Source: Pelagibacteraceae bacterium AG-349-E10 (GTDB lineage: Bacteria > Pseudomonadota > Alphaproteobacteria > HIMB59). From it: 64,000 nt of DNA. Within the stretch, counting starts at the first letter, position 1. Each line of letters opens with the position of its first letter. The stretch spans positions 19,772-83,771 of the forward strand of contig QCDA01000003.1 in NCBI GenBank assembly GCA_003281065.1, read 5' to 3'. Both the position numbers and the translations under genes were made by a program. Below, piece after piece: positions 16,674-26,194 of this stretch. The notes beneath the pieces were generated by a model. The model was not told the DNA's origin, did no database searches, and saw only the letters and a program-made list of their open reading frames with translations.

Positions 16674-16751
16674 GGGGGTGTAGTTCAGTTTGGTTAGAAC
16701 GCCTGCCTGTCACGCAGGAGGTCGCGGGTTCGAGTCCCGTCGCTCCCGCCA
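16674..16751 (+). tRNA. tRNA-Asp(GTC); integration target
   Basis: GGGGGTG/CGCTCCC acceptor stem, CCTGC-CTGTCAC-GCAGG anticodon arm, CCA end. Confidence 0.96.
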
Positions 16752-16950
16752 CAATAAGATAATCTTGGGTTATATATTTCCTAACTTTTTCAATACTTAT
16801 CTGTTCAACAAAAATTAATTGAATCAATAAACCATGTCGTCTAATTCCATAAAATTTCTTTCTAGTGGTGAACATATGGTGAGCAAAACCCCCCATGTAC
16901 TTTTAGACAATAACAATGGTAGTGATTTCAATGCAGAACAGATTTCCTTA
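16707..16950 (+). repeat. Left copy of 244-bp imperfect direct repeat (attL core plus element arm)
   Basis: Aligns without gaps to 22514-22757 at a constant offset of 5807. Confidence 0.93.
16867..16886 (+). promoter_or_regulatory. Putative integrase arm-type sites (tandem pair)
   Basis: GGTGAACATATGGTGAGCAA matches GGTGAACACTTGGTGAGCAA at 22434-22453 on the other arm. Confidence 0.65.
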
Positions 16951-16986
16951 TGGAATTTGATCCCTAAATCAAAGGATATTTTTCCA
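16951..16986. promoter_or_regulatory. 36-bp dyad operator-like site upstream of the integrase
   Basis: TGGAA-N4-ATCCC-N8-AGGAT-N4-TTCCA; second copy at 19339-19374. Confidence 0.65.
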
Positions 16987-17037
16987 ATTCATAAGATGTT
17001 GAATCCAATTAGTAACCATACGAAAGGATACAACACA

Positions 17038-18297
17038 ATGACTAAGATAAGATTTAATAAAACTAATATTGAAAGCCTTAAACCTAAGGAAAAAAGATAC
17101 AGAGTTTATTCTGATGAAGTTAAAGGTTTATATGTGGAAGTATTAACCTCTGGTCGTAAAGCGTTCAGAGTTTTGTACAAGGTCAACTATATAAGCTATA
17201 CCCACCAATTAGGGGTGTACCCCGTTATGACTCCGACCTATGCAGTCAAACGAGCTATGGAAGTTTTAACTTCTGTTTCTAAAGGAAACAATCCACAGTT
17301 AGACAAAATTAAGAAAAGAGAAGAACTTACTTTCAAAGAATATTTTATTGAAAGGTTTTTACCTCTTCAGTTAGATAGGCGTTTCAGTAAAGAAGAGTTT
17401 ACTATTAATGATGAAGGTAGGATTAAATGGCGTAAAGGCGTTCAGAAAAAGATCTATAATCTTACTGACGGATACAATGCTCACTTCAGGTTCGCTAAGT
17501 TTATCAATAAAAAAGTATCTGATATTACTGAAGAAGATGTAATTATTTTCTCTAAACAGATTACTAAAAGCCATATCCACAATAGATTAATGAAAGAACT
17601 TAGTAGGTTTTTCAATACTACTTCATTGAATATTAATCCTGTCAGAAGAGCGTTAGCTACTGATATTCAGTTAAGACCAACCAAAGCAAGAACAGTTAAA
17701 GCTAAACCTGAAGAAGTTAAGGCTATTGGTAAGGCATTAGAACTAATCAAAAGTGGCTATATGCAAGACAATGGCTTCTATTACCAACCACAACCACAAC
17801 AAGTAAACATTATAAAAATTCTTTTATTTGAAGGGTTAAGACCTAATGAAGTTTACAAAATGGAGTGGTCAATGGTCAATGAGTCGGGGGTATATGACAC
17901 CGATACTAAAACGGGTGAGAAAACTATTCCATTAACTAAACAATCTTTGAATATTCTTTCTACTATTGAAAAGAAATCAAAGTTTGTCTTTCCGTCGCCC
18001 ACGAACAACGATCAACACATCAAGAGCATTAGAAAGATATGGACTAAGGTCTTAGAACTATCTGGAGTTAATCCTGAACTAAGAATTTATGATTTAAGAA
18101 ATACTTTCAGTTCAAAAGCCTCAATGATGTTTGGAACTTGGGTATCATCTAAGTTAACTAATCACACAAACTCTAGAACAGTTGAGAAGCATTATTCTGA
18201 TTTAGATAGTGGGGAAAGAGTATCTAGAAAGAATGAAGTAGCAGAAACATTTGAAAACCTTTTGCAAGGTGGGGGGAAGGTTGTCCAGATCAAATAA
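17038..18297 (+). CDS. Tyrosine integrase with N-terminal arm-binding domain (P4-like architecture)
   Basis: GLYVEV..SG.K.F...Y arm domain; catalytic R (GLRPNE), K (TKTG), YDLR (HxxR variant), LTNH and Y (KHYS); start set at ATG 17038 after an AAAGGA SD. Confidence 0.92.
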   Translation: MTKIRFNKTNIESLKPKEKRYRVYSDEVKGLYVEVLTSGRKAFRVLYKVNYISYTHQLGVYPVMTPTYAVKRAMEVLTSVSKGNNPQLDKIKKREELTFKEYFIERFLPLQLDRRFSKEEFTINDEGRIKWRKGVQKKIYNLTDGYNAHFRFAKFINKKVSDITEEDVIIFSKQITKSHIHNRLMKELSRFFNTTSLNINPVRRALATDIQLRPTKARTVKAKPEEVKAIGKALELIKSGYMQDNGFYYQPQPQQVNIIKILLFEGLRPNEVYKMEWSMVNESGVYDTDTKTGEKTIPLTKQSLNILSTIEKKSKFVFPSPTNNDQHIKSIRKIWTKVLELSGVNPELRIYDLRNTFSSKASMMFGTWVSSKLTNHTNSRTVEKHYSDLDSGERVSRKNEVAETFENLLQGGGKVVQIK

Positions 18298-19348
18298 GTA
18301 TTTACATAAATTATTTGAGGAACATTGGAATAAAAACCAAATAAATCCCAAGGATTTTAAGCCTAGGAAAGACGGAAGCGTTAAACCTACGACTTACATC
18401 ATGAATGGTCAGTTGACTATTAACTATGGTCAAATGAGAAACTCCCACAAAGAAGTTACGATAAGACAAATCAAAAAATACAACATCAAATCAGCTTCAG
18501 AACTAATTGCTAAAGCTAGTGAAGGTATTCCTGAACATGTTCCAAAGGTTGGTATGAACCTAACAAAGAAACAAGAAAAGGAATATTTTAGATTGCAAGG
18601 TGTTGACGAAGCAGAAAACGAATTAGGTATTGCTAATACTTTGCAAGAGAGTGAGTGGAAACTCTATAAGTCTTTGCTTCCATTATATACCAAGGGTATG
18701 AACTATGTCGTTTACCAAATTAGGGTGTATGGGGTAAATAAAAAAAACCAATCTAAGTTTGATAAACTCTATAAAGATGTTGTGTCTTTCTTTCTATTGA
18801 TTGAAGGTCATCACAGAAGATACTTCAAAGAAGATCTTGATAAACTATCCAATGAATACCTAAGAGCTAAAACACATTTAGCAAAAGCAATAGAAGTTAT
18901 AGAAGATGATAAGTCTAAGAGTGCTGTTTATAGCATGAAATACGGAGTGGGTAGAGGTCGTATCTTTTCTATTAGAGTTATCGCTGAATTGTACAGACAG
19001 ATAGCGGTTATGGAAAAGTTAGTTAAACTGAATGATGAAGAGAAAACAATTAAATCCAGAGTTCCTAATGAAACAGAGGATCTACAATATTTTTATTATC
19101 TTTGTTGGGAAATGTATAAGTTGGTTGATGACAGTAAGTTCAAAACACCTAAATACAATAACCAAAAACTATTTGCACAGTTCGTGTATCATATTCAAAG
19201 CAGATTTACTTCTGTTGGTACGCTAAATAAAACATCAGAGTCTATTAGAAAGAAGCCAAAGTTTAAGAAGATGAAATTTCTAAACTTACAATCAATTAAA
19301 ACAGAAGTTACCTACAATAAAATATTCAAACAATTGTTTGGAAACTAA
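18281..19348 (+). CDS. Hypothetical protein (~355 aa) overlapping the integrase end
   Basis: Long ORF; probable TTG start at 18281 after a G-rich SD (track start 18251); no recognisable motif. Confidence 0.75.
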   Translation: MSRSNKYLHKLFEEHWNKNQINPKDFKPRKDGSVKPTTYIMNGQLTINYGQMRNSHKEVTIRQIKKYNIKSASELIAKASEGIPEHVPKVGMNLTKKQEKEYFRLQGVDEAENELGIANTLQESEWKLYKSLLPLYTKGMNYVVYQIRVYGVNKKNQSKFDKLYKDVVSFFLLIEGHHRRYFKEDLDKLSNEYLRAKTHLAKAIEVIEDDKSKSAVYSMKYGVGRGRIFSIRVIAELYRQIAVMEKLVKLNDEEKTIKSRVPNETEDLQYFYYLCWEMYKLVDDSKFKTPKYNNQKLFAQFVYHIQSRFTSVGTLNKTSESIRKKPKFKKMKFLNLQSIKTEVTYNKIFKQLFGN

Positions 19349-19374
19349 TCCTGAACTCATAGGATATTTTTCCA
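19339..19374. promoter_or_regulatory. Second 36-bp dyad operator-like site, upstream of HTH-primase-helicase genes
   Basis: TGGAA-N4-ATCCT-N8-AGGAT-N4-TTCCA. Confidence 0.65.
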
Positions 19375-19399
19375 TTTCTAGTTATTCCATATTATCTGT

Positions 19400-19633
19400 A
19401 TGGAAACACAAACCACACAAAGCGAAACATCAGAGTTACTAACTACTGATCAAGTAGCAAATCTCTATAAACAATTTTCAGCTAATGCTCTACGCATACA
19501 GCGTTATAGAGGTGAGTCGCCTTTTCCCTACATCAAGCTAGGAAAGAAGGTTTTTTACAACAAAGCAGACATAGAAAGAGTATTGAACAATCACACAGTT
19601 GACGAGTATGAAACCTATACTGATCAACGCTGA
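19400..19633 (+). CDS. Small HTH protein, AlpA/excisionase-like
   Basis: LLTTDQVA...L...R..G..P.PYIKLGKKVFY...DI pattern typical of HTH_17/excisionase proteins. Confidence 0.8.
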   Translation: METQTTQSETSELLTTDQVANLYKQFSANALRIQRYRGESPFPYIKLGKKVFYNKADIERVLNNHTVDEYETYTDQR

Positions 19634-20480
19634 ACGCTTCGTTTCAATGTATTTTCCTGACCATAAGATCAAGGAAAACGCCAAAGAAATCAGAATAGGG
19701 AACAAAGGTTCTAAGGTTGTTATGAAAGACGGATCGGGGTTCTTTGACCACGAAGAAGGAAACTTTACTTCCATGTTCAATGAAATCATGAGAAGAGAAA
19801 ACTTTTCTTATCCTGACGCATGTAAGTATTGCAAAGATAACAACTTATTTATTTCTGATCATGCTTTTAGATATCATAAAAAACCAATAGAAACTTTTAA
19901 GAGAGAAATCTTTGAAAAGAGTTTAATTCCTTTTGGGTTTACTAATGGTCATGAGTATCTGAAGAGAAGAGGTATTATTGATAGTGCCTACCCAGAGAAT
20001 ACATTGTATTGGAACGACGCAGAAAATTATCTTTGCCATAAGATTGTAGATATAAACCTACATACTATTGGTTATCAAAGGATATGGGTTAGTTCTGATT
20101 TCAAGAAGCTACCACCACCAAAGATCTATGGAACTTCTAAAGGTGGTAAGACTGTTATCAATATTCACGATTACGAAACAATTATTCTAGTTGAAGGACT
20201 AGAGGACGGACTGACACTTCACCAATCATACTTACTAAACAATGTTAAAAGAACTGTTTGGGTAATGACAGGAACATCTAATTTTCTAAATGTAGAAATA
20301 CCTGAAAGCACTAAGAGAGTTGTTATTGCTTTAGATAATGATGAAGCTGGTGAGAAGATGTTTGAAAAATGTAAAGAGCGTTTCAGTAATCTCAACAAAG
20401 CAGTATCCAGACTTCGACCAAAGCCTGAATACAAAGATTTTAATGATGAATTAAGAGGTATTAAATTTAATGCAAACTAA
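19608..20480 (+). CDS. TOPRIM-domain primase
   Basis: YL..RGI, LVEGLEDGLT, IALDND.AG and KDFND motifs. Confidence 0.85.
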   Translation: MKPILINAERFVSMYFPDHKIKENAKEIRIGNKGSKVVMKDGSGFFDHEEGNFTSMFNEIMRRENFSYPDACKYCKDNNLFISDHAFRYHKKPIETFKREIFEKSLIPFGFTNGHEYLKRRGIIDSAYPENTLYWNDAENYLCHKIVDINLHTIGYQRIWVSSDFKKLPPPKIYGTSKGGKTVINIHDYETIILVEGLEDGLTLHQSYLLNNVKRTVWVMTGTSNFLNVEIPESTKRVVIALDNDEAGEKMFEKCKERFSNLNKAVSRLRPKPEYKDFNDELRGIKFNAN

Positions 20481-21597
20481 CGGAAAAGCAATAGATCTTC
20501 CAACGGAAGAGATAGTAATTAAACAGAAAACATTCCCAAGTTGTACACTTGGTGAATTAGCAGTTATGGATATTCCAAAACGAAAAGCGATCATTGATCC
20601 GTTGATCATGGAAGGTTCTTCAATGGAAATAAATGGTGGAACAGGAATAGGTAAGACTTGGTTTACTCTTGAAATGTTATGTTCAATTGCAACGGGTGAA
20701 AAGTTTTTAGGAAAGTATGAAATAACTAATCCCAGACCTGTCTTATACATTGACGGGGAAATGCCTTTCGACTCGATTAGAGATAGAGTTACTATGATAA
20801 TGGCTAGGTATATTTATAAATACCAAGTTTCTAAAATACCCATTCATTTCAGTAATCCTTTTCTCTTTGAAAACAATTTTATCCCTAAGATTAACGATAC
20901 AAAGATCACTCAAACACTAATCAAAGACCAGATAAAACGCATATCAGACATACATAGTAGCCCGATATTTGTATGTTTTGATAACTTATCGTGCCTTACA
21001 GACTACAAAGAAAACGATAATGATGATTGGACTTCAATGTTGGATATGTACACATTCTTAAAACATGAAGGTCATTCAATCTGTCATGTACACCATGTTG
21101 GTAAGGGTGGTCAGCAACGAGGAGCTAGTAGAAAACACGACGCTCTAGATACTGTGATACACCTTAAAAGACCAGAAGAGTATGACGCTTCTGAAGGAGC
21201 TGTATTCAATGTTAGGTTTGATAAGCATAGACACTTCGCGGGTGAGTACGCTAGAAGTTTTAAATGTGCTATCAAAGTTGATGATAACAACAAAGTTTCT
21301 TGGGATATATCAGACTATAAAGATGTAGCCTCTGAAGAATTATTGACTGCTTATTGTGAAGGACTCCCTGATATTACTTACACCAAACTAGAGGAAGAGT
21401 TTGGAATATCTAAGAGTACTATTGGAAGGACAATCAAACAATGTGTTAAGAATGGACTCTACAAAATTAAAATGGAAGAGATCTATGGAGACGAATGGTT
21501 GAACTACGATAAGTTGATTAACAAACAAACAAAGAAGGGAGTAGCACTATCAAATACAAAAGAACAAACAGAAACAACACAGGAAATGCCATTTTGA
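20470..21597 (+). CDS. RepA-like AAA (AAA_25/SF4-like) replicative helicase with C-terminal HTH
   Basis: GGTGIGKT Walker A, VLYIDGEM, FDNLS, HH..K....RGAS; C-terminal LEEEFGISKSTIGR HTH-like segment. Confidence 0.85.
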   Translation: MQTNGKAIDLPTEEIVIKQKTFPSCTLGELAVMDIPKRKAIIDPLIMEGSSMEINGGTGIGKTWFTLEMLCSIATGEKFLGKYEITNPRPVLYIDGEMPFDSIRDRVTMIMARYIYKYQVSKIPIHFSNPFLFENNFIPKINDTKITQTLIKDQIKRISDIHSSPIFVCFDNLSCLTDYKENDNDDWTSMLDMYTFLKHEGHSICHVHHVGKGGQQRGASRKHDALDTVIHLKRPEEYDASEGAVFNVRFDKHRHFAGEYARSFKCAIKVDDNNKVSWDISDYKDVASEELLTAYCEGLPDITYTKLEEEFGISKSTIGRTIKQCVKNGLYKIKMEEIYGDEWLNYDKLINKQTKKGVALSNTKEQTETTQEMPF

Positions 21598-21599
21598 GA

Positions 21600-21639
21600 T
21601 TTCCCAATCCCATACCCTATAGCTTTGGGAAATGGGAAA
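21600..21639. other. Putative replication-origin palindrome
   Basis: TTTCCCA-ATCCCA...CTATAG...TGGGA-AA-TGGGAAA immediately after the helicase stop; no U-tract on either strand. Confidence 0.5.
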
Positions 21640-21737
21640 AGCCAAAGAAGGTTATCTGTATTGCTTCAGAAATTAGAAAGTCACTTGAAGAGAGTGATGA
21701 AAGAGAACTACATAAACTATTTTGGAAGAGAGCATAA

Positions 21738-21923
21738 ATGGATCGTTACTTATCGGACTATGAAAAACTACTTCTTGAATACGAAAGGATTGAGTCAAAA
21801 CTTAATAGCCTTTTTATTCAGACTGATCTATCAGAGTCAGCTAGAAAGAAGTTAGAAATAAGTTTGAAGAGAAGATTAAAAACACTACTACCTGAACTAA
21901 GAAAAAAAGAAACAGAAGTTTAA
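21738..21923 (+). CDS. Small hypothetical protein (61 aa, coiled-coil-like)
   Basis: ATG preceded by purine-rich GGAAGAGAG; charged helical sequence. Confidence 0.55.
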   Translation: MDRYLSDYEKLLLEYERIESKLNSLFIQTDLSESARKKLEISLKRRLKTLLPELRKKETEV

Positions 21924-22433
21924 TATCGTTTCTAGTTCATTCGTGTCGTTACTTAAATTCTTCCAAATTTGATGAATTTAATGCGAAATTAATCGAAATA
22001 CTTCTCTATACAAATAAAATACTCTCTCTAAGAGGGGGTTATTAGGGTTATTTTGTTAATGTTTTCAATTGTTGATACGGAGTTCTTAGTAGTTTTTCCG
22101 TATTTCTCGCATGGAACTCTCGTAGGTAATGTAACCTTTTGTTACCCTGAAATGTTTACTTTTGTTAACTTTAAAAGCTACGCATAGGGGGGGTTCAAAA
22201 TTACTAGAAGGTACACTTTAATACATGTTTAACACGCATTTTTGAATCGTAGGGTACGAAGTAAATGCTACCCCCGTAACAAGTTAACATGAGGCTAACA
22301 CCATGCTCTATGATTCCTAAAACAGCGTTTCGCGGTGCATGATCCATGGTCAAATATCAATGGATATTCTGTTCACCAATATTGGAATATTTGAATCATT
22401 ATTTCGTAAAATGTGGTAGTGTTTCACTAGAAA

Positions 22434-22453
22434 GGTGAACACTTGGTGAGCAA
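22434..22453 (+). promoter_or_regulatory. Putative integrase arm-type sites on the right arm
   Basis: GGTGAACACTTGGTGAGCAA; inverted copy TGTTCACCA at 22370-22378. Confidence 0.65.
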
Positions 22454-22513
22454 CTCTTATGGGTGTTTAAAAAGGCTTGGTAATATAGGCTTAAAACAAC
22501 CTAGGATTCCTTA

Positions 22514-22757
22514 CTGTCACGCAGGAGGTCGCGGGTTCGAGTCCCGTCGCTCCCGCCACTTTTATAAGGGAGTGGGTTATATTTTTCCTAACTTTTTCAA
22601 TAGTTATCTGTTCAACAAAAAAACATTGAATCAATAAACCATGTCGTCTAATTCCATAAAATTTCATTATGTGGGTGAACGAGGGGTGAACGAGAACCCC
22701 CATGTACATTTAGACAATAACAATGGAAGTGATTTCAATGCAGAACAGATTTCCTTA
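22514..22757 (+). repeat. Right copy of 244-bp direct repeat (tRNA-Asp 3' half plus left arm of a second element)
   Basis: Starts at the anticodon loop CTGTCAC; 46 bp identical to the tRNA end, then a diverged copy of 16753-16950. Confidence 0.93.
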
Positions 22758-22870
22758 ACTTCTCTGGGAGAGAGCGTAAATAGATCGTTACATATCAAAC
22801 TACGAGAAACTTCTTAATGAATAAAAATAATAATCATTTTTAAGTCAATTAATGATTATTTTATCAAAAT

Positions 22871-25800
22871 TCATTTCTTTGTATCATGATTATTTTTTTT
22901 ATTGAAAAATATGAGCGGGCCTTCCCATTTTTCTTTATAAACTGAATGTGGATTGGCGGGAAAACCATTTAAATTACCTTTCTTATAGTTCAATGACCAT
23001 TCATTTAAAGATTTTATATTTAATTTATGAGCTAGTTTCTTAGCCTTATCATAGGAGAATTTTTTTTTATCAATAAAATATGTTTTTTTTCTGTTTAAAA
23101 ATTTATCAATTCCATCATATTCCTCATAATAATTTAAATTAGTCGGATATCCATTAAGAAGACCTTTTTTGTATAATCTTTCCCAATGTCTAGAAGATGT
23201 AATTTTGAGTTTTTTAGCAATTTTTTTGGCTTGGCCATATGAAAAAATAATCTTAGAGTTTTTATATCTTATTCCTAAATAGTCTTCCCAACTCACCCAA
23301 CCTTTATTTTTGTATGCAATATCAGCTCCACTAGGTAGTTTGGTGTGGATTATTTTAAGATTTTTTTTATTTTGATATGAAGATCTTGTTTTAAATCCAT
23401 GTTTTTGTACAAGTTTTTTTGCCTTTGCAAATGGAAGCCATCTATCATCTGATAATAACAATTGTGATTTTTTCCCTAAAAAGTCTACCCAACCTTTCCA
23501 CCCATTATCTTTATAAATACGTTGTGGAGATGATGGTAAATTCTTAATTATACCCTTTTCAATTAATTCTTTATATTCTGTGTTAGATCTAATTTTGAAC
23601 TTTGAAATAATTTTTTTTGCCTTTTCAAAGGGCATTTTTTTAATATCAAACTTATACAACTTTTTTGTTCCAAGGAAATCTGACCAGCTAGTCCACTCAC
23701 TATAGTGTTTATCTGGTCTCAAGATAAAATTGGATGGCAACTTTCGCTCAGTATATAGCTTGAACCACTCGTGTGATGAATTTATTTTCTGCTTTTGGGC
23801 GTAATTTGAGAGAATTTTATAGGGAGTTTTGATTTTTTCTTCATGTGGAATCCTGCCAAAAAAATTATCTGAGTTAATCCAACCTTTATTTTTGTAAGTT
23901 ATAAATGGATATATTGGTATTGGATTTAAAGATGTCGAGTTATGTTGAGCATATTTTTTCCATTCATCTAAGCTATTAATATTATTCTCATAAGCTAACT
24001 TTTTAGCATCCAAATACGAAAGCTTTGTATTTTTGGTATACTTTATATTCAAAAACACATCCCATCCCTCCCACTCAGAATAAATTCTATCTGGAGTTCT
24101 TGGTAAATCTTTAGGTAGTTGATTATTCATAAATTTCATAGAATATTCATCTGCAGACTTTAATTTTATGGATTGAATAAATTTTTTAGCTAGTTCATAT
24201 GATCTCCAGTTTCCAAAAGCTACCCTATCCCAAATTTTAAGATTAATAGCATTTTCAAATTTCTTGTGATCAACATCTTTGAGTTTTTTTATTTTTATCA
24301 ATCCATCAATGGGAGAACCGCCCCTAGGAATATTGCCAGTTTCAAGCATTCTTAAATGATCAATTATTCTGCTATCTTGAGCCGCTAAAGCTTTTAAAGT
24401 AATTATTATTTCTCTAAAAGAATTATCCTTTTCAATTTGTTGAATATCTGAATTTTTAGGAATTATTATTGGAAGTAGTATGTATCCATATTTTTTTCCT
24501 TTTGATAGCCTCAACGCTCTTCCCGCTGCTTGAACAATATCTACTCTACTTTGTTTAGGGTCAGTGAAAACAACGCAATCAATTGCGGGTAAATCAACAC
24601 CTTCAGTTAAGCACCTAGCATTTGTCATAATACCTTTATGATTAGCAAATTCTCTCATTTGGAAAGTTCTTTTATTTGTTGGCATTTCACCAGAAACATG
24701 AAAGGTATTTAATTTTCCTAAATTTTCATCAAGTTCATTTATAATCATTTGTTGAACACTGAAACTCTCGGCTCTTTTGATTGATCTATGAAATGATATT
24801 GCATTTTTAATACTTAGTTTTTTGATAGCTTTTCTCAAAGCTAGAGCAGTTGCAAATTCTCTTGCAGTAATATTTTTTAGTTTATCCTTTATTTTTATGT
24901 ATTTGTTTTTTTGATATAGCTCATCTATTTCTGCTTCTTCAATATTAAAAGTTATAACTTTGTAATCAGAGATGATGGGTGGTTTCATTTCGATAGCTTC
25001 TTTAAAACTAAGAAAATAAATTATTTTTCCATAAATTCTTTCATCATCCATAGAAAAATAATCATCTTTATCGCCTCTAAAAACTCTTTCAGTAGCAGTC
25101 ATGAAAACTCTTTTTTTAATTCTAATATTCTTTTCATCTAGCAGATGAGCCATAAACTTTTCTTTTTGACCAACGGTTTTATGAGCTTCATCCATTATTC
25201 CCAGATCATAGCTATGGCCTTTTGAACCTAAAGAAGTAACCATTCCACTTTGATATGTTGTGAAAATAATTTTTGGGTTTTTACTTCTTTTTTTTAAAAA
25301 ACCTCTAATTTCATTACTGTCAGTTGTTACTCTAATTCCTATATCTGAGACATTTGTAATAAAATCATCTTGGTCTTTACTAACAGTTTTATCACTGCAA
25401 ACACAGAGCCATTCAGGCTTTACTCCATTAGCAAAATATTCTCTTGTCCATACTTTCAATGTTTGCTGAAGTAATGCTAAACTAGGTACTGCTACTAAAA
25501 TTGATTTAGATTTTAGCTCTTTAGATATCCAAAAAGCAGTCAAGCTTTTGCCTGTACCACAAGGCATAATGATCTTACCTCTATCGTTATTTAAAAAAAA
25601 TTTTGATGTTTCTTTTATTGCCTTTATTTGATGTTTTTTGGGCTTGAGAGGAGTAAATTTAAGATTTTTGTTATTGATTTTTGATAAAAGGTTTTTCCAA
25701 CCCTCATAATTATCATCATCTAATTTGAGAAAAGTTTCTAAAGTTTCGAAACCAACTTTGTCAATATATTTTACTTTTTTAGGTGGTTTTTGAACTGTGG

Positions 25801-26194
25801 TAAATACAATTCCGTGTTCAATATTTTTGCAATAATTAAAACTTAAGTCTGTAAAACTAGTTAAATCATTTCGTGTTAAGTTAGTATTATCTCCAGATCT
25901 ATATTTTGCTTGAATTGACCAAATTTTATCCTCACTAGTGATTGCAATTAAATCAATACCCTCATCTGAGATTGGCAAGTTTATTTTTAATCTTATCCGT
26001 TCCGGAACTTCATCTAAAAGATAAACTTCTTTTATTTTTGAAATATATTCAGGCGATGACTTAAGGTAATATTTAATAATATTTTCAAAAATATAACCTG
26101 CTTCTTTAGTTTTATTATTTCTAGTTAATTTTGATAAATTTAAGTCTATCTCCTTCCAAGATTTAGAGTTTTTTATGTAAGTATTTTCAATCAT
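22871..26194 (-). CDS. Mrr-like nuclease + SF2 (DEAH) helicase + seven C-terminal ~60-aa tandem repeats; candidate defence protein
   Basis: DEGIDL..IQAKY PD-(D/E)xK-type motif; MPCGTGKS, DEAH, MTAT, LTEGVDLP, QAAGRALR; repeats from about aa 663 (nt 24208) to the end. Confidence 0.85.
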   Translation of the reverse strand: MIENTYIKNSKSWKEIDLNLSKLTRNNKTKEAGYIFENIIKYYLKSSPEYISKIKEVYLLDEVPERIRLKINLPISDEGIDLIAITSEDKIWSIQAKYRSGDNTNLTRNDLTSFTDLSFNYCKNIEHGIVFTTVQKPPKKVKYIDKVGFETLETFLKLDDDNYEGWKNLLSKINNKNLKFTPLKPKKHQIKAIKETSKFFLNNDRGKIIMPCGTGKSLTAFWISKELKSKSILVAVPSLALLQQTLKVWTREYFANGVKPEWLCVCSDKTVSKDQDDFITNVSDIGIRVTTDSNEIRGFLKKRSKNPKIIFTTYQSGMVTSLGSKGHSYDLGIMDEAHKTVGQKEKFMAHLLDEKNIRIKKRVFMTATERVFRGDKDDYFSMDDERIYGKIIYFLSFKEAIEMKPPIISDYKVITFNIEEAEIDELYQKNKYIKIKDKLKNITAREFATALALRKAIKKLSIKNAISFHRSIKRAESFSVQQMIINELDENLGKLNTFHVSGEMPTNKRTFQMREFANHKGIMTNARCLTEGVDLPAIDCVVFTDPKQSRVDIVQAAGRALRLSKGKKYGYILLPIIIPKNSDIQQIEKDNSFREIIITLKALAAQDSRIIDHLRMLETGNIPRGGSPIDGLIKIKKLKDVDHKKFENAINLKIWDRVAFGNWRSYELAKKFIQSIKLKSADEYSMKFMNNQLPKDLPRTPDRIYSEWEGWDVFLNIKYTKNTKLSYLDAKKLAYENNINSLDEWKKYAQHNSTSLNPIPIYPFITYKNKGWINSDNFFGRIPHEEKIKTPYKILSNYAQKQKINSSHEWFKLYTERKLPSNFILRPDKHYSEWTSWSDFLGTKKLYKFDIKKMPFEKAKKIISKFKIRSNTEYKELIEKGIIKNLPSSPQRIYKDNGWKGWVDFLGKKSQLLLSDDRWLPFAKAKKLVQKHGFKTRSSYQNKKNLKIIHTKLPSGADIAYKNKGWVSWEDYLGIRYKNSKIIFSYGQAKKIAKKLKITSSRHWERLYKKGLLNGYPTNLNYYEEYDGIDKFLNRKKTYFIDKKKFSYDKAKKLAHKLNIKSLNEWSLNYKKGNLNGFPANPHSVYKEKWEGPLIFFNKKNNHDTKK

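What the first reader, a model, noticed from the sequence alone, without database searches (positions are those of the whole stretch)
16707..22559. 5.8-kb minimalist phage-satellite-like element in a streamlined alphaproteobacterium
Seen: a 5,807-bp unit bounded by tRNA-Asp 3' duplications, with all genes on one strand (integrase, orphan, HTH, TOPRIM primase, AAA helicase, small ORF). There is no recognisable capsid, terminase, relaxase or conjugation gene, and the reading frames look intact. Known: int + alpA-like + primase with no packaging genes at about 6 kb is the layout of Vibrio PICMIs, and tRNA-targeting marine elements (tycheposons, virion-encapsidated elements) use similar modules. 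Inference: an autonomously replicating, helper-phage- or vesicle-mobilised satellite, possibly a family not yet described in this host group.
Basis: partly seen in the sequence, partly recalled or inferred. Interest (0 to 1): 0.75.

Follow-up and report, generated by a model that had tools for sequence, protein, structure and literature searches.

The report
Minimal phage-satellite-like element in HIMB59 bacteria
An intact 5.8-kb mobile element sits in a tRNA gene of an ocean bacterium, and seawater DNA assemblies also show it with its two ends joined; it likely copies itself and likely travels inside phage particles like known marine phage satellites, and gutted cargo-carrying copies likely depend on it to spread.

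Summary
Observation confirmed. The element is a 5,807-bp unit between identical 46-bp tRNA-Asp cores. It carries six co-oriented genes under purifying selection: tyrosine integrase, an integrase-overlapping orphan, Xis/AlpA-like HTH, DnaG/T7-type primase, AAA_25 helicase and a small ORF. The host is HIMB59 family. The predicted joint (22513→16707) is bridged by contigs in 3 of 8 seawater runs laid (2 studies), and two homologous contigs are circularly permuted. Relatives show the empty site (4 of 20 loci), the full element (2 of 71 genomes) and an internally deleted cargo-carrying mini form (7 of 71) that is more alike between hosts than the flanks are. New cis features are paired arm-type repeats and a palindrome before both operons. 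It works like a PICMI but fails membership: tRNA rather than fis, and a different primase. It best fits the broad VEIME class, which already includes alphaproteobacterial elements. Phage packaging, the helper and concatemers were not shown; vesicle transfer or tandem arrays remain possible. The scan earlier described the mini form on another genome (e1-5192915). New member of a known kind; interest 0.47.

The parts
16674..16751 (+). Host tRNA-Asp(gtc), intact; integration target (attL side)
16707..16752 (+). 46-bp att core, left copy; begins at the 7-nt anticodon loop
16867..16884 (+). Pair of 7-bp direct repeats (GGTGARC, 11-bp period); predicted integrase arm-type sites, left arm
   Evidence: 3 matches in the window vs 0.01 expected; 3 in the whole genome, conserved in variants and minis
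16951..16986 (.). 36-bp imperfect palindrome before int; predicted operator or hairpin, copy 1
   Evidence: present in 5 of 5 full-length variants tested
17038..18297 (+). Tyrosine integrase, 419 aa (Arm-DNA-bind_3 + Phage_integrase; R268, R354, H376, Y386 invariant; YxxR in place of HxxR); frame open upstream from ATG 16834
   Evidence: dN/dS 0.13-0.14
18269..19348 (+). Integrase-overlapping orphan (orf2), 359 aa, mostly helical, fast-evolving; positional analogue of PICMI iolg
   Evidence: no Pfam/PHROG/PADLOC/NCBIfam hit; 18 homologues; start from alignment; dN/dS 0.27-0.59
19339..19374 (.). Palindrome copy 2, before the HTH-primase-helicase run
19400..19633 (+). 77-aa HTH_17 protein; predicted excisionase (Xis/AlpA-like)
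   Evidence: PF12728 E 6e-5, below its cut-off; phrog_66
19599..20480 (+). Toprim primase, DnaG/T7 gp4 fold (start TTG 19599 or ATG 19608)
   Evidence: PF13362; model pLDDT 88; Foldseek 2au3 E 5.6e-10, also Twinkle and T7 gp4
20470..21597 (+). AAA_25 helicase, 375 aa, Walker A at residues 56-63, C-terminal HTH-like stretch
21600..21639 (+). Conserved hairpin right after the helicase stop; kept in the mini form; candidate terminator or origin element
   Evidence: z -2.4
21738..21923 (+). orf6, 61 aa, unknown function, conserved and kept in the mini form
   Evidence: dN/dS 0.23
21955..21999 (.). 45-bp site duplicated on both sides of the cargo gene in mini elements
22434..22451 (+). Right-arm pair of GGTGARC repeats; predicted arm-type sites
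22514..22559 (+). 46-bp att core, right copy (attR)
   Evidence: joint 22513->16707
22560..22823 (+). Relic of a second related element: left arm (with arm repeats at 22674-22691) fused at 22757 to an orf6-start fragment; outside the 5,807-bp unit

Best explanation
It is an intact tRNA-Asp-integrating mobile element that also occurs with its ends joined, and it likely behaves as a minimalist phage satellite that excises, replicates with its own primase and helicase, and is packed into a helper phage's unmodified capsids. Shown: boundaries, gene set, purifying selection, the joined-end form and empty sites in kin. Inferred: the integrase binds the paired arm repeats and recombines at the anticodon-loop core; the HTH protein is the excisionase; orf2, as with PICMI iolg, helps control excision and may act at the two palindromes. 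Also inferred: infection by a lytic phage switches on the HTH-primase-helicase run, and head-to-tail copies are packaged by a cis signal in the non-coding right end, since no terminase or capsid gene is encoded. Deleted mini forms that keep the arms would be moved in trans by the full element.
For: A single contig bridges 22513->16707, with 255 or more letters on each side, in 3 of 8 runs laid: X1 and X5 of study P1, X2 of P2. Homologous contigs L054 (6,081 bp) and L059 (6,463 bp, 623-bp perfect end repeat) read through the core from right end to left end and lack the tRNA 5' half. 13 of 23 listed runs, from 6 studies dated 2014-2025, hold 0.93 or more of the element's words (one could be the window's source). 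The empty site (81-106 bp from core to nuoA) is seen in 4 of 20 loci; the full element in 2 of 71 genus genomes. dN/dS is 0.13-0.24 for int, HTH, primase, helicase and orf6. The order int, overlapping orphan, alpA-like, primase at about 6 kb matches PICMI115, shown experimentally to be packaged as concatemers by a virulent phage (PMC10803314). VEIMEs of similar size without capsid genes are reported from Alphaproteobacteria (PMC9618062). No T4SS coupling protein (PF02534) is over cut-off in 0 of 71 genus genomes, many of them incomplete. Minis are 96.4-99.8% alike against 83.8-97.5% for the lon flank, higher in 21 of 21 pairs (pairs not independent). In G011 vs G054 identity rises from about 80% to 97-100% at the tRNAs.
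Against: Nothing here shows DNA inside a capsid, a concatemer or a helper phage. The joined form would also come from a simple excised circle or from tandem copies in a chromosome: L049 reads as two variants head to tail, and the window itself holds an element followed by a relic. In 5 of 8 runs no contig bridged the joint. No close relative was found in IMG/VR or INPHARED. The HTH is below the Pfam cut-off. The orf2 role rests on position alone. The spread of minis could also be by homologous recombination through the tRNA pair.
Confidence: 0.64

Rival explanations
1. An integrative, self-replicating element induced by host stress and spread in extracellular vesicles or as free DNA (tycheposon-like), with no specific helper phage.
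For: The same genes and the same joined form are expected. Tycheposon hallmark genes are enriched in vesicles (10.1101/2020.12.28.424599). A Pelagibacter element was seen as monomers in vesicles and as concatemers in virions (PMC11876622). No terminase family PF03237 in 0 of 71 genomes and no PF03354 or PF05065 in G000, so no resident helper prophage was found.
Against: The full element carries no cargo that would benefit the host. A fast-evolving, swapped orf2 allele fits conflict with a phage. Lack of a prophage also fits a lytic helper, as for PICMI.
Confidence: 0.22
2. The joined-end contigs come from tandem chromosomal arrays of the element, which still moves by integrase but need not replicate outside the chromosome.
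For: Element plus relic in tandem in the window; L049 with two variants head to tail.
Against: The three bridging contigs run unbranched through the 46-bp core, whereas in the other five runs the listed pieces stop at it. G013 holds one copy. The primase and helicase are under purifying selection.
Confidence: 0.09
3. A decayed prophage or ICE/IME fragment that is no longer autonomous.
For: Integrase and primase-helicase modules resemble phage families in PHROGs.
Against: Both att sites and all ORFs are intact; the same gene order occurs in variants about 80% alike in DNA; the nearest phage or plasmid proteins are 22-36% identical; there is no trbJ/trbL or relaxase.
Confidence: 0.05

Closest known systems
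PICMI (phage-inducible chromosomal minimalist islands, Vibrionaceae; PMC10803314)
   Same: About 6 kb; order int, integrase-overlapping unknown gene, AlpA/Xis-like HTH, primase; no capsid, terminase or capsid-remodelling genes.
   Different: Integrates in tRNA-Asp rather than at fis; 46-bp rather than 17-bp repeat; Toprim primase plus a separate AAA_25 helicase rather than DUF3987/DUF5906; orf2 overlap 29 nt rather than 1-13 nt; host HIMB59; non-autonomous minis.
VEIMEs (virion-encapsidated integrative mobile elements; PMC9618062)
   Same: Marine, tyrosine integrase, excisionase-like and primase/helicase genes, no capsid genes, size within the reported range, alphaproteobacterial host. Dataset S3 lists VEIME_1360 (5,811 bp, GC 32.9, tyrosine integrase, 60-kb read); the G013 copy is 5,811 bp, GC 33.8. 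This is a size and GC likeness only.
   Different: VEIMEs are defined by concatemers in purified virions, which could not be tested. No sequence comparison with VEIMEs was possible. 'HIMB59' does not occur in the 7 readable supplements; the SI appendix PDF could not be read.
Tycheposons (Prochlorococcus; 10.1101/2020.12.28.424599)
   Same: tRNA-targeting tyrosine recombinase, excisionase, replication genes, partial tRNA repeat; the sister tRNA-Arg family and the minis carry cargo.
   Different: The full element has neither cargo nor terS/MCP, the two described types; other host; tycheposon HMMs not available.
PIMEs / IMEs (10.64898/2026.01.12.698999)
   Same: Integrase, alpA-like gene and a replication gene.
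   Different: No trbJ, trbL or relaxase; about 6 kb rather than about 20 kb; no coupling protein found in the genus.

Membership tests
PICMI | Integrase PF00589/PF00239/PF07508 | tested here: met
   PF00589 42.5 bits, cut-off 27.1; model definition
PICMI | AlpA PF05930 or PF12728 | tested here: inconclusive
   PF12728 E 6.2e-5, 23.6 bits, under the cut-off of 27
PICMI | Primase DUF3987 (PF13148) or DUF5906 (PF19263) | tested here: not met
   Toprim_3 and AAA_25 instead; neither DUF hit
PICMI | Integration at fis | tested here: not met
   Integrated in tRNA-Asp; the only PF02954 hit in G000 is on another contig
PICMI | Unknown gene overlapping int (iolg; in 21 of 35 subfamilies) | tested here: met
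   orf2 overlaps int by 29 nt; met by position only, homology to iolg families not tested
PICMI | Induced by a virulent phage and packaged as a concatemer | not testable with these tools
   needs culture or virion long reads
VEIME | Concatemeric repeats in purified virion DNA | not testable with these tools
   only short-read contigs were available; they show the joint, not copy number or particle type
VEIME | Integrase, no major capsid gene, monomer up to 16.8 kb, also integrated in bacterioplankton genomes | tested here: met
   definition
PICI / P4-like / cf-PICI | Packaging-redirection or capsid genes (terS, sid, ppi, capsid) | tested here: not met
   no such family among the six ORFs in Pfam, PHROGs or NCBIfam; orf2 and orf6 are unannotated, so a novel one is not excluded
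Tycheposon | tRNA-targeting tyrosine recombinase with replication genes | tested here: met
Tycheposon | Cargo module or terS/MCP | tested here: not met
   absent from the full element; present only in minis and the sister family
Tycheposon | Hallmark-gene profiles and integrase clade | not testable with these tools
   the profiles are not held
PIME / IME | trbJ and trbL (and often a relaxase) | tested here: not met

The most novel reading that the evidence does not exclude
A distinct family of minimalist satellites of HIMB59 (SAR11 clade V) bacteria, using a split T7/Twinkle-type primase-helicase and a new fast-evolving integrase-overlapping protein that senses the helper phage and acts at two palindromic operators. 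It is itself parasitised by 2.7-kb non-autonomous cargo-carrying minis that borrow its integrase, replisome and the phage capsid (a satellite of a satellite) and outnumber it 7 to 2 in sampled genomes.
Probability: 0.28. Interest if true: 0.72.

Novelty: new member of a known kind. Interest (0 to 1): 0.47.

Why it matters
Marine satellites without packaging genes are known in bulk (VEIMEs) but are understood mechanistically only in Vibrio PICMI. This element gives a precisely bounded, recurrent example in an abundant streamlined clade. Its att sites, candidate arm sites, candidate operators and natural deletion derivatives point to the cis sequences needed for excision and packaging. If the minis are mobilised in trans, it offers a route by which genes move at a tRNA hotspot in a clade where no conjugation coupling protein was found.

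Tried and rejected
Flank cover: in 4 of 8 runs laid (X1, X2, X5, X8) the element was covered end to end at depth about 11-33, while the lon/clpX and nuo flanks had 0-1.8. This would fit a cell-free fraction, but the library type is not on record and lack of cover proves nothing, so it is not counted as evidence. The joint was not bridged in X3, X4, X8, X11 or X12; no joint for the mini deletion was listed.

Int-orf2 complex prediction gave no answer, score 0.00: no evidence either way. orf2 fold: model pLDDT 68.7, no Foldseek PDB hit at E<=0.001, and only generic helical hairpins at Z<=8.4. Atlas neighbours were unnamed; the profile search found 16 proteins and no known family. orf2 against the overlapping gene of the tRNA-Arg sister family: probability 0.8%, homology not shown.

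IMG/VR scans with orf2, int and the right-end joint found nothing. The arm-motif scan gave 2 chance hits in GC-rich phage genes, dropped. The promoter scan was below chance (14 vs 22.5). Rfam found only the two tRNAs. The helicase had no PDB sequence hit. VEIME_1519 is exactly 5,807 bp but GC 36.8 with 10 genes against 34.0 here, so it is treated as a coincidence. The 'int' rows used an off-frame query and were redone. PICMI, PIME and prophage-remnant membership were rejected as above.
Full report
Observation. The host order is clpX, lon, HU, tRNA-Val, tRNA-Asp (16674-16751), element, relic, a 1,107-aa Mrr/SF2-helicase gene, then nuoA. The last 45 nt of tRNA-Asp plus one base (16707-16752) recur exactly at 22514-22559, spacing 5,807. 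The core starts at the anticodon loop, a common crossover site for tRNA-targeting tyrosine integrases (recalled). Element GC is 34.0% against 30.3% for the genome. There is no other copy in the 903-kb, 68%-complete genome. Six + strand ORFs are intact.

Genes. Int (ATG 17038, 419 aa) hits PF13356 and PF00589, and its catalytic-region residues are invariant in 7 homologues. orf2 starts at GTG 18269 by alignment with 11 of its 18 homologues, overlaps int by 29 nt, and matches nothing in four libraries. The 77-aa HTH hits PF12728 below cut-off and the excisionase family phrog_66. The primase is Toprim_3, and its confident model matches DnaG, Twinkle and T7 gp4 primase domains. The helicase is AAA_25 with matches to DnaB-like and primase-helicase PHROGs. 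Against two variants about 80% alike in DNA, dN/dS is 0.13-0.24 for five genes and 0.27-0.59 for orf2. orf2 is also swapped between lineages: L054 has an integrase 95% like the window's but an orf2 55% like it and 86% like L055's (a chimeric assembly is not excluded).

Cis sites. A pair of 7-bp direct repeats with an 11-bp period occurs exactly three times in the genome: left arm, right arm and relic, against 0.01 expected in window shuffles. I infer these are arm-type integrase sites. A 36-bp palindrome occurs twice, before int and before the HTH gene, and is kept in all 5 full-length variants tested. I infer an operator or hairpin that couples the two units. A conserved hairpin follows the helicase stop.

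Host and distribution. Named record L061 has lon and nuo flanks 92% and 96% identical to the window. It is listed as f_HIMB59 in the supplement of PMC10734472, so the host is HIMB59 family (AEGEAN-169). Among 71 genus genomes, one per species and many incomplete, the full element is in 2; a primase profile finds the same 2 among 187 order genomes. The left arm is in 16 of 71. Of 20 loci measured, 4 have tRNA-Asp within 81-106 bp of nuoA, the empty site. A more distant host (L055-L058, 78% DNA identity) has a relative integrated at the same tRNA.

Joined-end form. 13 of 23 listed runs, from 6 studies, hold at least 0.93 of the element's words. I laid 8 of these 13. In the other 5 the listed pieces stop at or near the core. 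Of 12 loci found with orf2 in metagenome assemblies, L054 and L059 are permuted through the core with terminal repeats and no tRNA 5' half. This shows a circle, a concatemer or a tandem array; contigs cannot tell which, nor the particle type.

Mini forms. 7 of 71 genomes carry a derivative fused at an 8-bp microhomology (16940-16947 to 21597-21604) that removes int through helicase. It keeps the left arm, the hairpin and orf6, and carries a secreted dienelactone-hydrolase-like gene (PF01738) between 45-bp repeats. Four of the 7 keep both att cores (2,673 bp in G009); three lost the right end. They are more alike than their lon flanks in 21 of 21 pairs. In G011, whose flank is 84% identical, the mini sits in an otherwise empty site and is 96-98% identical. 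Recent horizontal spread is therefore well supported; mobilisation in trans by the full element is inferred. An earlier scan note (e1-5192915) had described this mini and its 5.8-kb parent; I had found both before reading it and checked the spread myself.

Mechanism. Shown: an intact, selected, mobile element with a joined-end form. Inferred from PICMI genetics (PMC10803314: int, iolg and alpA needed for excision, prim for replication, concatemers in full-size capsids of a virulent phage): Int with the HTH and orf2 excises it, primase and helicase amplify it, and a helper phage packages it by a cis signal. No coupling protein and no Terminase_6N were over cut-off in 71 genomes, which weakens conjugation and points to a lytic rather than resident helper, or to vesicles. 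I put the phage-satellite reading at 0.64, vesicle or helper-free transfer at 0.22, tandem arrays only at 0.09 and a decayed remnant at 0.05.

Comparison. It works like a PICMI but is not one: 2 of the 4 mandatory model genes (primase family, fis) are not met and one (AlpA) is inconclusive. It meets the testable VEIME features; the defining one is untestable here. VEIMEs from Pelagibacter and other Alphaproteobacteria are already reported, and VEIME_1360 resembles the G013 copy in size and GC, so the family may be in that dataset unnamed. Paper searches showed no report of a satellite in HIMB59; the library lacks most subscription papers.

Papers seen. PMC10803314: parts 1-4 of 9 and passages. 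PMC9618062: parts 1-3 of 7, Dataset S3 rows, term searches in 7 supplements and part 1 of Dataset S7; its SI appendix, which holds the host maps, could not be read. PMC10734472: passages and supplement rows. PMC11876622, PMC11389934, 10.1101/2020.12.28.424599 and 10.64898/2026.01.12.698999: passages only.

Verdict. A real, active-looking minimalist integrative element, most likely a marine phage satellite. New member of a known kind, with useful extras (candidate cis sites, a swappable orphan, spreading minis). Interest 0.47.

Noticed in passing
window 22560-22823: Relic of a second related element directly after attR; its deletion breaks 3 bp from where the minis of other genomes break, just before the palindrome at 16951, although joined to a different downstream point.
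   Followed up: partly
window 22871-26194 (-): 1,107-aa Mrr_cat_2 + SF2 helicase fusion with C-terminal repeats (PADLOC type IIG/I REase hits over the N-terminal 600 aa) fills the variable slot before nuoA; close relatives have a 311-aa ORF or other DNA there. Probably anti-phage cargo outside the element.
   Followed up: partly
window 16834-17037: The int frame is open for 68 codons upstream, across the left arm repeats, in all variants examined (dN/dS 0.4-0.5 with low synonymous change). Either DNA-level constraint or a real N-terminal extension; unresolved.
   Followed up: partly
L063-L067, L021-L023 (tRNA-Arg tct): Sister family in 6 of 71 genomes: integrase about 45% identical, overlapping orphan, a variable run of small cassette genes many sharing one signal peptide, a 40%-identical HTH and a DUF1376 replication-type gene; about 8-10 kb between 46-61-bp att repeats. 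One copy carries the same hydrolase cargo and 45-bp site as the minis.
   Followed up: partly
L097 3900-9400 (G050) and L105 (G017): Truncated integrase N-termini next to tRNA-Lys(ttt); in G050 followed by formate dehydrogenase, alternative oxidase and other genes up to a partial tRNA repeat.
   Followed up: no
L049: 8.6-kb contig reading as two variants of the element head to tail with different orf2 alleles; it contains 54 N and may be a mixed assembly of a circle.
   Followed up: partly
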